DNA from: an uncultured delta proteobacterium | GTDB taxonomy: Bacteria; Myxococcota_A; Polyangia; Polyangiales; Polyangiaceae | DNA length: 64,000 bases | Direction: 5' to 3' | NCBI GenBank assembly: GCA_963850305.1 | Contig: CAWKKR010000007.1 | Coordinates: 992,001-1,056,000, forward strand | Shown: one piece after another, positions 3,985 through 46,992 of the stretch | How positions within the stretch are numbered: the first letter of the stretch is position 1 | Layout of the letters: every line of letters starts with the position of its first letter | Translations under genes and position numbers: made by a program | The notes under the pieces: model-generated | The model's database searches: none | What the model saw: only the letters and a program-made list of their open reading frames with translations | What the model was told of the DNA's origin: nothing

Positions 3985-4260
3985 TCACGTGTCCGGTCCG
4001 TCGCGTCAAGCGCGCGGTGAGCGGTCGTAAGTCGCTCACAAGCCGACTCCCGCGCGTGGCGCGCGCGATCGCGCGTCCGGTTCGCCATCCCCGGTCTGCG
4101 GAGCGCGCTACCCGGTCTGCGGAGCGCGCTAGCGGCCGTTAGTGTCGCCTACTCGCGTGTCCGGTTCGTCGCGCCACGCGCTCGGGGCGCGCTACCCGAC
4201 GCATGGCTCGCGCTTCCGCGCGCTGGTGTCGCCTTGCCACGTGTCCGGTACGCGGACGCT
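3985..4260. repeat. Degenerate 21-bp periodic array with an 84-bp higher-order period
   Basis: G(T/C)GTCCGGT at 3989, 4073, 4157, 4241; GTGTCGCCT at 4142 and 4226; exact tandem CCCGGTCTGCGGAGCGCGCTA x2 near 4090-4131. Confidence 0.7.
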
Positions 4261-8390: not shown

Positions 8391-8486
8391 GTCGATGCGT
8401 CGTCTCTATCGCGCATCCAGCCCTCATCGGCGAGGCTCACGACGCGATCGGCGAACGATCGCGTCGTGATCGGCAACGATCCCGCC

Positions 8487-8696
8487 GAGGACGGCAACAT
8501 CCGCGTCGAGGATGGCAACGTCCGCGTCGAGGATGGCAACGTCCGCGTCGAGGATGGCAACGTCCGCGCCGAGGATGGCAACGTCCGCGCCGAGGATGGC
8601 AACGTCCGCGCCGAGGATGGCCGCATCCGCGCCGAGGACGGCCGCATCCGCGCCGAGGACGGCCGCGTCCGCGCCGAGGACGGCCGCGTCCGCGCC
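8487..8696. repeat. Tandem array, 10 x 21 bp (GAGGA(T/C)GGC(AA/CG)C(G/A)TCCGCG(T/C)C)
   Basis: Units read directly; substitutions form a gradient along the array. Confidence 0.95.
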
Positions 8697-8973
8697 GTGA
8701 TTGGCGACGATGTCGCCGAGGACGTCCACGATGCCGCCGAGGACGCGTGCGTCCTCACTTCGGATACGGCCGTCCTCGGTCCGACTACCTGCGTCCTCGC
8801 CTCGGGGACTGGCGTCGAGGACGTCTCAGGTGCGATTCATGTCGAGGCCTTCAGGTCGTCGCGGCGCGCCGTTCGCGTCCTTCCGGCGAGACGTCACAAA
8901 GTCGCACCAACAACTTCCCTCGAATCGAACGTAACACTAGCGTCACTTTTTGAGCATCGGTCGAGTCTAGCTG

Positions 8974-33177: not shown

Positions 33178-33422
33178 GCTGATGGCGAAGACCGCGGGGT
33201 CAGATCGGCGGGCAAGGCGCGGAGGCGTACGAAGGTACGCCGAGCACCGAGAGCGTCGAGATGGCCCCGTGCTCGAAGCCAGGGGGGAGACGGAGTCAGC
33301 GAAGTGCTGATGGCGAAGACCGCGGGGTCAGATCGGCGGGTAAGGCGCGGAGGCGTACGAAGGTACGCCGAGCACCGAGAGCGTCGAGATGGCCCCGTGC
33401 TCGAAGCCATCAGCACTTCGCT
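33178..33422. repeat. Tandem pair of ~104-bp MITE/REP-like structured repeats; second copy has 17-bp terminal inverted repeats
   Basis: 33178-33281 vs 33306-33409, 1 mismatch; AGCGAAGTGCTGATGGC (33298-33314) / GCCATCAGCACTTCGCT (33406-33422); internal GGCGTAC-GAAG-GTACGCC hairpin. Confidence 0.85.
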
Positions 33423-36400
33423 CAGGAGCAGCCCATGGAGTTGCCGCAGTTCAGACACTTGTAGCAGGCGCCGTTCCGAACCGTGATGTGCCCGCATCCG
33501 TCGCAAACCGGAGCATCGCCCATCATCTCCTCGAGTTGTGCGTCGAGCGCACCGCGCTGGCTCCCGGCGCTGGTCGTCGAAGACGCTTTTTCCTGGAGTC
33601 GGGGCGCCTCAACGGTTCCCGCGGGCTCCTGGAAGCGTGGGGTCATCGGATCATCGATGGCAGCCGTGGGGGCCAAGCTAAAGCTCGTCCCCGTCGATTC
33701 CGCGGGCTGAACCTGTGCGAAGTCGTATCGCTTCAGATATTCGACGCCCAGGACCCGGAAGATGTAATCGACGATGGACGTCGCGAACTTCAGATTCGGA
33801 TGCCCCTCGACCACGCCGTGCGGCTCGAAGCGAGTGAACGTGTATTGCTCGACGTACGTCTCGAGCGGTACGCCGTACTGAAGCCCGATGGATACGGCCA
33901 TGGCGAAACAGTTCATCAGAGAACGAAACGCCGCGCCTTCCTTGTGCATGTCGATGAAGATCTCGCCGAGAGCACCGTCATCGTATTCGCCGGTGCGCAA
34001 GAACACCTTGTGTCCCCCGACACGCGCCTCTTGGGTGAAACCGCGCCGCTTCGTGGGCAATCGAACCCGCCCGCCAGCGGGACGCGCCGAGGTCGCGAGA
34101 GCGGCGCTCGTCCGCGCGGAAGCCTGGCCTTCCTCGGGAGTGGCACTGTCGCCGCTCGACGTGCTGAGCGGCTGTGAAGCCTTGCACCCATCACGGTAGA
34201 GCGCGACGGCCTTCAACCCGAGCCGCCAACCCTCTTCGTAAATCTGGCGGACGTCGTCGGTCGTCGCCTCGTTTGGCAGGTTTACGGTCTTGCTGATGGC
34301 ACCGGAGAGAAACGGCTGCGCAGCGGCCATCATCCGAATGTGGGCCATTGGTGCCAGGAACCGCTTGCCCGTGCGACCGCAGCGGTTCGCGCAATCGAAC
34401 ACGGCTTGGTGATCGTCTCGCAGGTAGGGCGCGCCCTCAATCGTCATGCGACCGATGATCACGTCATTCGCTTCCTCGATCTGAGTTGCCGGGAACCCGA
34501 GGTGCTTCAGGAGCGAGAACCCCGGCTTGGACATCGACGTGGCGCTCACGCCGAGGCGTTCGTACGTTTCTTTGCCGAGCACCCATGGTGCAAACGCGAG
34601 GTGCAAGTCGAACACGCCAGGAATGGCGTCTTCCACCTTTTCGAGATCGTCTTCAGTGAGGCCGGCGGCCTTCAAGGTTCCGCGGTTCACGTGCGGCGCG
34701 CCGAGAAGCGTGTTCGTTCCCGACACGTATGCGACGATCTCTTGCACTTCGGCTTCCGAGTAGCCGAGCTTGCTGAGTGCGTTGGGTACGGACTGATTGA
34801 CGATCTTGAAGTAACCCCCGCCCGCGAGTTTCTTGAATTTTACGAGCGCGAAGTCAGGCTCGATGCCCGTGGTGTCGCAGTCCATCAGGAGGCCAATCGT
34901 GCCAGTCGGCGCGAGGACGGTTGCCTGCGCATTGCGGAAACCGTGGGCCTCGCCCAGGTGGACGACATCGTTCCAATCTTCCACTGCGGCGCGCCACAGT
35001 GCGTCCGGACAGGCGTCTCGATGAATGGCGTACGCCGCTTCCTGGTGCATTCGCATCACGCGAAGCATGGGCTCGCGATTTTTTGCGTAGCCCTCGAACG
35101 GGCCCTTCGATGCGGCAATGAGCGCACTCGTACGGTAGGCGTGCCCGCACAGGATCGCCGTCAAAGCACCGGCGACGGCGCGCCCTTTTTCCGAGTCGTA
35201 CGGAATGCCGAGCAACATGAGCAGTGTTCCGAGGTTCGCGTAGCCGAGTCCGAGCGGACGGTAGTCGTGCGAGTTCTTGGCGATGGGCTGCGTCGGGTAA
35301 GCCGAAAGGTCCACCAAGATCTCCTGGGCCAGGAAGAACACCGCGACTGCGTGACGGTACCCCTCGACGTCGAAAACGCCGTCCGCGCTCAGGAACTTCG
35401 TCAAGTTCAGCGATGCGAGGTTGCACGCTGAGTTGTCGAGGAACATGTACTCGGAGCAAGGATTCGACGCGTTGATGCGCGCGGTGTTCGGGCACGTGTG
35501 CCACCGATTGATCGTCGTGTCGTATTGAAGACCGGGGTCTGCACAGCGCCACGCCGCGTCCGCAATCATGTTCCAGAGATCGCTCGCGTTGTACGTGTCG
35601 ATGACTTCACCCGTCGTGCGCGCGCGTGTCTCCCACTGGCCGCCCGCGAGAGCGAGTTTCATGAAGTCGTCCGTCACTCGAATCGAGTTGTTCGAGTTCT
35701 GGCCGCTGACGGTCTTGTAAGCGTCGCCGTTGAAGTCCGCGTCCATCCCCGAGTCGATCAGGATCTGCGCCTTGCGTTCCTCGCGCACCTTCCACTGGAT
35801 GAAGTCCGCGATCTCGGGATGATCCATGTCCAGGCAGACCATCTTGGCGGCGCGCCGCGTGGTGCCGCCACTCTTCGTCGAACCCGCGGCGCGGTCGAAC
35901 ACCTCGAGGAAGCTCATGAGTCCGCTCGAGGTCCCTCCACCTGAAAGCTTCTCTTGTCGCCCGCGGATGCAGCTGAAGTTCGTCCCAGTGCCCGACCCGT
36001 ACTTGAAGAGGCGCGCCTCGGCCTTCATGAGGTCGTAAATCGACATCAAGTCGTCTTTTGCTTCCTGGATGAAGCATGCCGAGCACTGCGGACGAGCATA
36101 GGCGTTCGCCGTTTCCGTTATCTGGTCGGTCGATGGGCTCCAGGCCCAGTTGCCTCCGGAGCCCTCGATGCCGTACTCGTGGAAGAGTCCGCAGTTGAAC
36201 CATACGGGGGAGTTGAATGCCCCGAACTGGTTTACGAGGAGATAGGAGAGCTCGTCTTCGAACGCGTCGGCGTCTTTCTTCGTCGCGAAGTATCCGCCGA
36301 ACTGCTCGCCCGCCGTACGAATCGTGTGTGCGATGCGCGTCACGACCTGGCGCACGCTCGTCTCGCCCTTCTTGGGATCGCCGTTTATCCCGGCCTTCCT

Positions 36401-36691
36401 GAAATACTTCGAGACGACGATGTCGGTCGCCAGCTGGGACCATCCGGAAGGGATCTCTGCTCCCTCCATCTTGAAGACGACCGAGCCATCGGGATTGTTG
36501 ATGACGCTGCGGCGGCGCTCCCAGACGACCTCGTCGAGCGGTGCAACCCCGGCGGTGCTGTAGCGACGGTCGACGACGATGCCTTTGCGCTTCTTAGCGC
36601 GCTGTTTGGCATCTGCTCCGGTGGCCTGAGACGCTTGTCCCTGAGCACTCTTCATCGATCTGACCTGCCCCACGATCTCTGATTGCGCCAT
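33422..36691 (-). CDS. nrdJ: Class II (B12-dependent) ribonucleotide reductase
   Basis: [33 protein letters not shown]-terminal TSCPD-like domain and CxxC..CxxC ribbon. Confidence 0.97.
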
Positions 36692-36974
36692 TTTTCCTGC
36701 CTCCGTCCACAAAAGTGGGGACACACTTCCCCGCTGGAACCCGACGGCCACGCCGCCCTCCGTACACACACCTGGGTCGTTTGGCTGGTCGTGAGACCCG
36801 CCCTGCTTCTTTGCCCGGTGGATGGGGCGCCAAACGGCGCTCCACCTTCGAGACCTGGACTACCCGCGAACTACCCTGACCGACGACTCCGCTTTCTCTG
36901 TCGCGCAGTGATTTCCGATTAACGAAGTGACCTGCTTCGATGATCAGGCGTCAACCGAGCGAGCTGCCTTCGTA

Positions 36975-37021: not shown

Positions 37022-37272
37022 AGTCCTCACAAACACTGAACAATCCTGCACCGTCTCCACAGGGTCTTCGGCGGCGCCTCGAGCTGAACGCAAGCTCTCC
37101 CCCGAGAGCCCTCAATCTCTCCCGCGGGTAGCCACGGTTTATCCCCAGGAAGCGAGCGTTTCGACCCGCCGCCGGGTGCGAGGGCATAGGAAAGGGGGCC
37201 TTGGCTGCCTTGCCCCCGCGGCTCGCTTCGCGACCGCTCCCCCGCCGCCTTCGGCGCGCTCGCTGCGCTCGC

Positions 37273-37329
37273 GTAGTTCCGCGGCTCTTTGATCCCTCGG
37301 GGACGACGTGCTCGTCGATGCGGAACTAC
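37273..37329. repeat. GTAG-bounded REP-like inverted repeat forming the IS110 target flank
   Basis: GTAGTTCCGC (37273-37282) / GCGGAACTAC (37320-37329), with internal GACGTGCTCGTC hairpin. Confidence 0.65.
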
Positions 37330-37338
37330 TAGGAAGCT

Positions 37339-38571
37339 CTACGCCGCATGAGGTTTGATCTCGACTTCGCAGCCGAGGTCGGTCAAGCGGCGGACGAGGC
37401 GTTTGATGGTCTTGCTCTGGTCGCGGCGGTCGAAGTGATGGGGTCCGAGGTCGCGGTAGGGAGTGCCGTCGCGGAGCATGTAGAAGGCGGCGGTGAGCAT
37501 CGATGCGGCGACGGCCAAGATCGCCTTCTTTGCTCCACGGCGGGACTTGAGCCGGAGAAACTGGGCTCGAAGGTAGCTTTCCTTCGTGCGCACCGCGGCC
37601 CAGGCGGATGTGACGAGCGTCGTCTTGAGCCAGTTGGCGCTCTTGCGGACGCGCGTCGAGCGACGCTTGCCGGCGCTCTCGTCGTTGCGGGGGCAGAGGC
37701 CGGCCCAGGACACGAGGTGTCCCGCAGACGGGAAGCGCGACATGTCGACGCCGATCTCCGCCACGATCACGTTCGCGACGATGTCACTCACTCCCGGCAT
37801 CGTCGTCAGGATCTCGGCGTGCGCCCGGATCGGCTCCAGCGCTTTTCCCGCAGCTGCATCGATCTCGGCCAGGGCCCCTTCGAGCGAGCCGATGACGCCG
37901 AGATGCAGCTTCAGCATGGCTCGGTGATGAGGGGTAACCCGCCCGCGCAGCGCTTCGATCAAGTCGGCCCTCTTCTTGCGCGCGGTACCGACCGCGAGAT
38001 CGGCAAGGCGCTCGGGGTCATCTTCTCCGGCGATGAGAGCGGCGAGCATCGCCCGGCCGCTGGTCCCGAGCACGCTGGACAGGACGCTCGCGACCTTGAT
38101 GTTCGAGTCCTCGAGCGTTTTCTGTATGCGCAGCGTGTGCTGGGCGATTTCTCGCACGAGCTGCTTGCGCGTTCGAGTGAGATCGCGCAGCTCCTGGATT
38201 CGCGCAGGAGGCACGAAACTGCTGCGGATCAGCCCGTGCGCGAGCAGATCGGCGATCCACGTCGCGTCGTTCACGTCGGTCTTGCGCCCTGGCACGTTGC
38301 GAATGTGCTGGGCGTTCGCGAGCACGAGTTCGAAGCTCCCTTCGAGCATGTGCCAGACCGGCTTCCAGTACACGCCGGTGGCCTCCATCGCCACGTGGGT
38401 CACGCCGTGCTCCTCGAGCCATTCCGCCAGCTCGAAGAGGCTACGTGTGGTCGTGCCGAACGTTCGGACCTCGCGCCGCGTTGGTTCGCTGACGCAGCGC
38501 ACGCAGGCAACGACGCTATCCTTGTGGACGTCGAGGCCCGCGCAACGGGGATACATGACTTCCATGACCAT
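37339..38571 (-). CDS. IS110 family DEDD recombinase/transposase
   Basis: GLDVHKD, MEATGVYW, KTDVNDA (DEDD RuvC-like) and ESAGK serine motif; RBS AGGAGG. Confidence 0.97.
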   Translation of the reverse strand: MVMEVMYPRCAGLDVHKDSVVACVRCVSEPTRREVRTFGTTTRSLFELAEWLEEHGVTHVAMEATGVYWKPVWHMLEGSFELVLANAQHIRNVPGRKTDVNDATWIADLLAHGLIRSSFVPPARIQELRDLTRTRKQLVREIAQHTLRIQKTLEDSNIKVASVLSSVLGTSGRAMLAALIAGEDDPERLADLAVGTARKKRADLIEALRGRVTPHHRAMLKLHLGVIGSLEGALAEIDAAAGKALEPIRAHAEILTTMPGVSDIVANVIVAEIGVDMSRFPSAGHLVSWAGLCPRNDESAGKRRSTRVRKSANWLKTTLVTSAWAAVRTKESYLRAQFLRLKSRRGAKKAILAVAASMLTAAFYMLRDGTPYRDLGPHHFDRRDQSKTIKRLVRRLTDLGCEVEIKPHAA

Positions 38572-38582
38572 CTCCTCCTTTC

Positions 38583-38737
38583 GGCGCGTCGAGAGGAGCC
38601 CTCGTCATCGAAGTCTACTAGGCGTGCTCCCGGATCTTTCGACCCGCGGTCACAATTCGGGGTGCTCGCAGGGCTCCGGGTCCATCTACTGAACGGGTTC
38701 TTGGCACCAAGTCACGGCCGACCTCGTTCCCGACGCC
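38583..38737 (-). ncRNA. Putative IS110 bridge/seek RNA
   Basis: Closing stem GGCGTCGGG/CTCGACGC; stem GGAGCCCT/AGGGCTCC; two parallel loops with TCAGTAG (target) and CCTAGTAGA (circle junction); TATCCT -10 candidate at 38743-38748. Confidence 0.75.
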
Positions 38738-38837
38738 GCGGCAGGATACACTCGACTCCACCGTCCACGCGACGACCCGAGCTTCATGCTTCGGGGAAGG
38801 CGCTCTCGCCGATGGGCATCTACTGAGCCTGCCGAGA

Positions 38838-46756: not shown

Positions 46757-46840
46757 GCTCGGCCCGAATCGGACGTTGCTCGGCTCGAGTCGGTGGTTGC
46801 TCAGCTCGAGTCGGTGGTTGCTCGGCCCGAGTCGGACATT
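46757..46840. repeat. Tandem array, 4 x 21 bp (GCTC(G/A)GC(C/T)CGA(G/A)TCGG..)
   Basis: Units at 46757, 46778, 46799, 46820. Confidence 0.85.
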
Positions 46841-46992
46841 GCGCAGCGTGAGGAGGCCCGCTCCACGACTGAGTCACCGGCCCTTCGCCGATCATTTGAT
46901 GGTGGCGCGGCCGTGGCTCGTAGCATTGTACGGACTAAAGCCGATCAGTCGATGAGGCCCGCCAGATCTGGCGTCACGACGGGAAGGGACGG

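What the first reader, a model, noticed from the sequence alone, without database searches (positions are those of the whole stretch)
37289..38819. Target flank mimics the IS left end, with a covarying DNA hairpin and a distal CCCCGA motif also present in the guide RNA
Seen in sequence (minus strand, after the GTAG core): the left end reads ATGCCCATCGGCGAGAGCGCCTTCCCCGAAGCATGAA and the target flank reads TTCCGCATCGACGAGCACGTCGTCCCCGAGGGATCAA. These match at 26/37 positions without gaps. Both carry a hairpin at the same place with a compensatory change (GGCG-AGAG-CGCC vs GACG-AGCA-CGTC). CCCCGA(A) lies 23 nt from the core in both (38790-38796; 37297-37302), and CCCCGAA recurs on the 5' side of the RNA donor loop (38656-38662). 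I found no contiguous reverse-complement right-hand guides. Inference: recognition may be split between the core-proximal guide and a distal guide across an extruded DNA hairpin, with one guide serving both donor and target. Alternatively, the IS inserted into a relic of a related left end.
Basis: partly seen in the sequence, partly recalled or inferred. Interest (0 to 1): 0.8.

Follow-up and report, generated by a model that had tools for sequence, protein, structure and literature searches.

The report
IS110 guide reads a distant end
This RNA-guided jumping gene sits beside a tiny hitchhiking copy of its own ends, and across its relatives one of its RNA guides matches a DNA word beyond a hairpin and on the unexpected strand, which suggests it grips its own end as folded DNA.

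Summary
The 26/37 match is real but is not target mimicry. The flank is the left end of a ~140-bp non-autonomous mini element (71 copies called) that shares both ends and the insertion consensus of this IS110 (8 copies, 7 abutting a mini). MITEPpu9 is the published precedent, and this scan noted IS110 minis before on other DNA. The target loop is canonical: a reverse-complement right guide exists (z=9.5, 63 homologs).

In 79 dereplicated homologs the donor-loop 5' 7-mer matches, same-sense, a left-end 7-mer beyond a covarying hairpin: 6.20/7 versus 4.65±0.09 permuted; 28 versus 0 of 39 nearest pairs (11 ties). The canonical position shows no signal, nor do target flanks. The motif is in register with a 5-bp subterminal repeat, not with the core.

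Both donor guides would therefore pair with one strand. Best model, inferred and untested: that strand folds back into a bubble mimic. I found no description in eight library searches. Against it: mutating the ISPpu9 left-end hairpin did not stop circle formation, and strand-asymmetry tests were uninformative.

The parts
38820..38826 (-). Left target half TCAGT plus AG core (38820-38821)
   Evidence: consensus of 65 outer left junctions is T-C-A-G-T-A-G
38812..38819 (-). First 8 nt of the IS left end, ending in conserved CAY
   Evidence: Prefix is 7-9 nt in 74 of 75 parsed homologs
38799..38810 (-). Left-end DNA hairpin (4-bp stem, 4-nt loop)
   Evidence: Outer 4 pairs 87% Watson-Crick vs 50% with permuted arms, n=72
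38791..38797 (-). Distal donor motif, same-sense to the donor-loop 5' guide
38781..38785 (-). Left-end subterminal repeat GAAGC, 5 nt beyond the motif
   Evidence: Perfectly complementary to the right-end 5-mer in 62 of 63 homologs
38743..38748 (-). Possible -10 box TATCCT (by eye only)
   Evidence: Position; the sigma-70 scan found no promoter
38583..38739 (-). Predicted bridge RNA: closing stem, target loop, donor loop
   Evidence: Consensus fold of 31 homologs, 93% of cells paired, 17 of 26 pairs with compensatory change; expression not tested
38710..38716 (-). Right target guide (5' side of target loop), reverse complement of core plus right flank
   Evidence: 2.48 vs 1.31 of 5 permuted, z=9.5, n=63
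38686..38693 (-). Left target guide (3' side of target loop); two other IS copies carry a mini inserted here
38657..38663 (-). Donor-loop 5' guide, matching the distal left-end motif in the same sense
38615..38622 (-). Left donor guide (3' side of donor loop), same-sense to right end plus core
   Evidence: right ends were picked using this match, so not an independent test
37339..38571 (-). IS110 recombinase, 410 aa; D14, E63, D99, D102 and S299 invariant in the alignment
   Evidence: PF01548 and PF02371; NF033542 over cut-off; alignment; model matches IS621, 20% identity
37326..37337 (-). IS right end: subterminal repeat GCTTC, 5-nt left donor, AG core
37185..37325 (-). Non-autonomous mini element: IS-like left end (hairpin 37304-37317, motif 37297-37303, repeat 37287-37291), GC-rich internal hairpin unit, IS-like right end (37187-37194) that lacks the last GTAG in this copy
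   Evidence: 71 left ends called in the genome

Best explanation
Shown: an IS110 element has inserted at the left junction of a mini element built from the same two ends, so the flank resembles the IS left end by descent. Shown statistically: the target loop pairs canonically with both strands, while the donor-loop 5' guide covaries same-sense with a 7-mer (often with a 1-nt DNA bulge) that lies beyond a variable hairpin and 5 nt from a subterminal repeat. [quoted passage not shown] Inferred further: the bottom strand of the joined ends folds back. The two 5-bp repeats form one stem and the hairpin the other, and the internal loop presents left donor plus core on one side and the distal motif on the other, imitating the DNA bubble that IS621 binds. 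The donor would be single-stranded or extruded DNA, and minis would move in trans because they keep these features.
For: Guide vs motif 6.20/7 against 4.65±0.09, 0 of 10000 permutations as high, n=79, with a register-free mutual-information diagonal anchored on the subterminal repeat. Own beats swapped in 28 of 39 disjoint nearest pairs, 0 reversed, 11 ties. At guide position 7, RNA G faces top-strand A 12 times and the reverse once, as G-T wobble with the bottom strand predicts. No signal at the canonical position. No RNA column explains the guide by internal pairing (best z 3.7-4.8). Core-to-repeat distance on the left varies 27-51 nt, while the motif ends 5 nt from the repeat in 68 of 79 and 6 nt in 11. 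Repeats covary in homologs, and minis use a different but self-complementary 4-5 bp repeat. Mini mobility: insertion into the RNA guide with AGTAG duplicated, left-flank consensus equal to the left target guide, tandem arrays, no PF01797 transposase and only this IS110 in the 94.8% complete assembly. Single-strand circles or single-strand transfer are reported for IS621 and CazIS110-1.
Against: In ISPpu9, whose ends have a similar layout by eye, mutating the left-end palindrome still gave minicircles by end-point PCR; its relation to this clade was not tested. Wobbles in the DNA hairpin do not favour either strand (8 vs 6). Computed repeat-stem probability is equal on both strands (0.68 vs 0.66). 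The repeat is only 5 bp and does not clearly extend (position 6 z=2.5). 16 of 33 minis with both ends called have a C-C mismatch at its inner position. Some subclades match the guide at only 5 of 7 (17 of 79), and position 6 has 9 non-pairing U:G-sense differences. CazIS110-1 prefers double-stranded donor for one junction. No RNA, circle or activity data exist for this element.
Confidence: 0.5

Rival explanations
1. The guide pairs with the distal motif, but on duplex DNA: only the small hairpin extrudes as a cruciform, the duplex makes a U-turn, and the subterminal repeats are read by protein.
For: Same covariation data. The hairpin has few wobbles on either strand (8 and 6 of 297) compared with 44 of 488 cells in three variable RNA helices (counted by hand). 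The first three repeat bases are invariant in 63 of 63 (partly forced by the parser). The protein has about 85 residues more than IS621.
Against: It does not explain why the motif sits the same 5 nt from its repeat as the core does from the other, or why minis changed both repeats in complementary fashion.
Confidence: 0.25
2. The covariation reflects RNA-RNA pairing between the donor loop and an antisense transcript of the left end (as Asr9 in ISPpu9), or another regulatory role, and donor recognition rests on the left donor guide alone (half-match).
For: Antisense RNAs exist in ISPpu9 and ISPpu10. Half-match recombination is reported for IS621. The hairpin was dispensable for ISPpu9 circles.
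Against: Minis lacking any bridge RNA keep hairpin, motif and repeat spacing. The register to the subterminal repeat has no reason under this model.
Confidence: 0.15
3. One reading: targets mimic the left end and one distal guide serves donor and target.
For: 7 of 8 IS copies sit at a mini left junction; about 7 of 17 mini sites against 1 of about 45 other TCAGTAG sites, p about 2e-4 with hand-entered counts. ISPpu9 targets carry a palindrome like its A box.
Against: One copy has no left-end-like flank, nor do 91 of 95 homolog loci. There is no donor-guide signal in right flanks. The canonical right target guide pairs 4 of 5 with the mini start counting wobble, which 1 of 44 free sites reaches.
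Confidence: 0.05
4. The repeat is a GTAG-type REP/REPIN moved by a RAYT transposase, and the IS merely targets it.
For: It starts with GTAG and has a 10-bp inverted repeat. It occurs in 5 of 6 congeners searched, of which 2 of 5 show any IS110. Mini right flanks do not match this IS's right target guide (1.23-1.5 vs background 1.33).
Against: No PF01797 match in this assembly. Both ends copy IS-specific features, a congener copy begins with the same 10 nt as the IS, and two IS copies carry a clean insertion with core duplication.
Confidence: 0.05

Closest known systems
IS621 / ISCro4 bridge recombinases (Durrant 2024 PMC11208160; PDB 8WT6-9, 9T56)
   Same: DEDD plus Tnp recombinase fold, left-end RNA with two guide loops, 2-nt core, target loop reading both strands.
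   Different: 20% protein identity and about 85 extra residues; AG core; guide order reversed (top-strand guide 5'); 5-bp rather than 2-3 bp subterminal repeats; donor 5' guide matches a distal motif on the same strand as the other donor guide, whereas the IS621 right donor guide pairs next to the core on the top strand.
ISPpu9 with MITEPpu9/ssr9 of Pseudomonas putida (PMC12288879)
   Same: AG core, ~43-bp left box with a palindrome, short right box, a hitchhiking mini with both boxes found behind the IS (5 of 7) and alone; target flank with a similar palindrome.
   Different: In the parts I read no guide is assigned to the left box. MITEPpu9 has 8 copies and carries an sRNA; here 71 left ends were called, with a GC-rich hairpin cargo, and the IS copies entered different minis. 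Protein relationship not tested.
ISPpu10 target stem-loop gate (bioRxiv 10.64898/2026.03.19.712850)
   Same: A DNA stem-loop contributes to recognition by an IS110 recombinase.
   Different: There the stem-loop is in the target and outside the guide pairing; here it is in the donor end, between core and guide-matched motif.
IS1111-group seekRNA elements (PMC11187229)
   Same: Top-strand match precedes bottom-strand match in the target loop; subterminal inverted repeats present.
   Different: There the non-coding region is downstream and the repeats are 11-13 bp, close to the ends; here the RNA is upstream and the left repeat lies 29-53 nt inside.
IS200/IS605 single-strand transposons (recalled, no call)
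   Same: Ends recognised as folded single-strand DNA.
   Different: HUH chemistry and DNA guides; unrelated protein. An analogy only.

Membership tests
IS110 family | DEDD RuvC-like domain plus Tnp domain with catalytic serine | tested here: met
IS110 family | Short shared core at both junctions, no long terminal repeats | tested here: met
   AG core at 8 copies and in homologs
IS110 family | Non-coding end encoding a structured two-loop RNA | tested here: met
   (structure only)
IS110 family | RNA expressed, bound by the recombinase; circular intermediate | not testable with these tools
   No RNA holder listed
Canonical bridge RNA (IS621 type) | Target loop pairs with bottom strand left and top strand right of the core | tested here: met
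   order in the RNA is reversed
Canonical bridge RNA (IS621 type) | Right donor guide pairs with the top strand next to the core | tested here: not met
   No excess at offsets 0-4
IS1111 group | Long non-coding region downstream of tnp and 7-17 bp subterminal repeats | tested here: not met
   RNA upstream, repeats 5 bp
IS110-dependent MITE-like element (MITEPpu9 type) | No ORF, both ends of the cognate IS, many dispersed copies at the IS target consensus | tested here: met
   a right end was called in 33 of 71 (after one doubtful call was dropped)
IS110-dependent MITE-like element (MITEPpu9 type) | Circle formation or movement dependent on the IS recombinase | not testable with these tools
   Indirect only: insertion into the RNA guide
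GTAG REP/REPIN-RAYT system | Y1/RAYT transposase in the genome | tested here: not met
   0 matches in a 94.8% complete assembly

The most novel reading that the evidence does not exclude
A large, phylum-spanning branch of IS110 recombinases recognises its donor as a self-folded single strand. Both donor guides read one strand, the subterminal repeats act as an intrastrand stem, and mini parasites exploit this structure. Such recombinases would be natural RNA-programmable integrases for single-stranded cargo.
Probability: 0.45. Interest if true: 0.87.

Novelty: new variant of a known kind. Interest (0 to 1): 0.72.

Why it matters
Whether IS110 intermediates are single- or double-stranded is openly disputed. 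This branch gives a sequence-encoded, directly testable prediction. It also gives a design rule: the donor for these recombinases needs about 45 nt of left end, not a 14-bp site. Published covariation screens use core-anchored 25-nt windows, which would blur a motif at variable distance, so the feature may have been overlooked. The mini family and the IS preference for it illustrate parasite-of-parasite dynamics, but that part has precedent.

Tried and rejected
Rfam scan: only two chance-level hits. Sigma-70 promoter scan: none. Sequencing runs: no RNA holder listed; no reads were laid. Canonical donor right guide: rejected. Distal guide acting on targets: rejected. Internal RNA pairing partner for the guide: none convincing. 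Strand of folding by hairpin wobbles or folding energies: uninformative. CAY/AYG variants (33 CAC-ATG, 2 CAT-ACG, 2 CAC-ACG of 79) would pair by wobble only on the bottom strand but may equally be protein contacts; not used as support. IS plus mini always moving as one unit: not favoured, because the 7 IS-linked minis are at most 93-98% alike and scattered on a tree while IS copies are 99.7-100% identical. A first regex parser missed many loci and was replaced by alignment anchors. Per-position z values use registers chosen on the data and are biased upward; I rely. The ISPpu9 RNA was not obtained, so its guide was not tested. No empty-site comparison was made.

Full report
Observation. The two 37-mers match at 26 positions and the hairpins and CCCCGA positions are as described. 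The ORF at 37339-38571 is an IS110 recombinase whose model resembles IS621 at 20% identity. The genome holds 8 copies at 99.7-100% identity and no other IS110.

What the flank is. The flank begins a repeat with 71 called left ends in this genome. Simple units are about 130-148 bp and longer ones contain tandem ~70-bp hairpin units. The left end keeps every conserved feature of the IS left end. Where a right end was called (33 of 71) it reads like the IS right end. The 65 outer left junctions (minis and IS together) give the consensus T-C-A-G-T-A-G, equal to the left target guide. Two IS copies carry an identical mini inserted into that guide with AGTAG duplicated. Related repeats occur in 5 of 6 congeners and weakly in 1 of 34 other relatives searched; one congener copy starts with the same 10 nt as the IS. 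No PF01797 transposase was found. I read it as a non-autonomous mini element of this IS or a close relative. Against a tidy picture: mini right flanks do not match this IS's right target guide, and GTAG is kept at 25 of 33 left but 18 of 33 right junctions. Seven of 8 IS copies abut a mini. The canonical target guides suffice to explain this: the mini start pairs 4 of 5 with the right guide counting wobble, against 1 of 44 free sites.

Homolog set. 154 loci had a tblastn hit. I kept 119 with at least 44% identity and enough upstream DNA, after removing seven own-genome duplicates and two unusable loci. 95 had a well-scored left end, 79 remained after dereplication, and 63 had a right end. Left ends were chosen by target-guide match and ATGAA-like motifs, not by the donor 5' guide.

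RNA and guides. A closing stem and two loops are supported by compensatory changes in 31 sequences. RNAalifold also drew a 3-bp helix of nearly invariant bases around the donor 5' guide, which I left out. In the target loop the 5' segment is the reverse complement of the true right flank (2.48 vs 1.31 of 5, z=9.5), so the target loop is canonical, with the IS1111-like guide order described in PMC11187229. In the donor loop the 5' 7-mer shows nothing at the canonical position. It matches, same-sense, a left-end 7-mer: 6.20 of 7 against 4.65±0.09 with the same freedom of register in permutations, best with a one-base DNA bulge in 31 of 79. Fixed-register mutual information gives a diagonal counted from the subterminal repeat. 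In 39 disjoint nearest pairs with different guides, own beats swapped 28 to 0 with 11 ties. Between core and motif lie about 8 nt and a hairpin of 10-33 nt whose arms covary (87% vs 50%). A more distant group (33% identity; L168-L182) shows the same layout by eye, with visible guide-motif resemblance in roughly 9 of 14 plasmid loci; this was not tested statistically.

Mechanism. In IS621 the right donor guide pairs with the top strand next to the core. Here both donor guides have top-strand sense and so can pair only with the bottom strand. The right end is repeat, 5 nt, core; the left end is motif, 5 nt, repeat. Folding the bottom strand so that the repeats pair puts the motif opposite the core side of an internal loop closed by the hairpin, which copies the geometry of a duplex bubble. 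In IS621 the strand paired to the 3'-side guides is cut first; if that geometry is conserved, the folded strand is the transferred one. This fits reports of single-strand circles and single-strand transfer but is inference. I put guide-motif pairing at about 0.8 and the full fold-back at about 0.5. Evidence against is listed under Best explanation; the strongest is the ISPpu9 hairpin mutant that still circularised.

Literature seen. PMC12288879: abstract, introduction, sections 13, 17, most of 18, passages, and supplement Table S2 passages. 10.1101/2025.10.25.684509: parts 1-3 of 5. 10.64898/2026.03.19.712850 and 10.64898/2026.08.31.748434: first part only. 10.64898/2026.10.21.760802: passages and sections 2.4 and 4.26. 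PMC11208160, PMC13626964, PMC11187229, 10.64898/2026.08.14.744561 and 10.1101/2025.05.14.653916: passages. Eight searches showed no description of a distal same-strand donor guide, and only the ISPpu9 paper held IS110, MITE and bridge RNA together. Figures, preprint supplements and subscription papers were not visible and could hold prior assignments. The names LTG, RTG, LDG and RDG follow; the IS200/IS605 analogy is recalled.

Verdict. The mini element is a new member of a known kind. The donor-guide architecture is a well-supported, apparently undescribed variant of bridge-RNA recognition with an untested mechanism. Interest 0.72.

Noticed in passing
G000 C11+250357, C8-161729, C4+424819, C11+64636, C1+409746: The mini's internal hairpin unit also follows a different left-end-like head (CAT, hairpin, another 7-mer, GAAAC-like repeat): probably a second mini family whose cognate IS110 was not found in this assembly.
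   Followed up: partly
G000 C5:149077-150705 and C8:718133-719760: Two IS copies have their left target guide split by a mini insertion: the RNA gene contains its own target site.
   Followed up: partly
G000 C8:866349 and C8:789153: One IS copy has three extra bases at its left junction; another has a variant that completes the bottom pair of the left-end hairpin.
   Followed up: no
L017, L019, L066, L089, L129: Homologous IS110 copies in head-to-tail tandem, i.e. a right end followed directly by a left end.
   Followed up: no
L016-L019, L031, L032: Several homologs insert into REP-like hairpins of their hosts.
   Followed up: no
window 33178-33409: 128-bp tandem repeat, 1.8 copies, 99% identical, just downstream of the B12-dependent ribonucleotide reductase gene at 33422-36769.
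   Followed up: no
window 8454-8745, 4090-4131, 46757-46842: 21-bp tandem repeats, up to about 11 copies.
   Followed up: no
window 37342-38571, residues about 160-210 and 370-410: Helical stretches that appear to account for the extra length over IS621; candidates for hairpin or repeat contacts, not tested.
   Followed up: no
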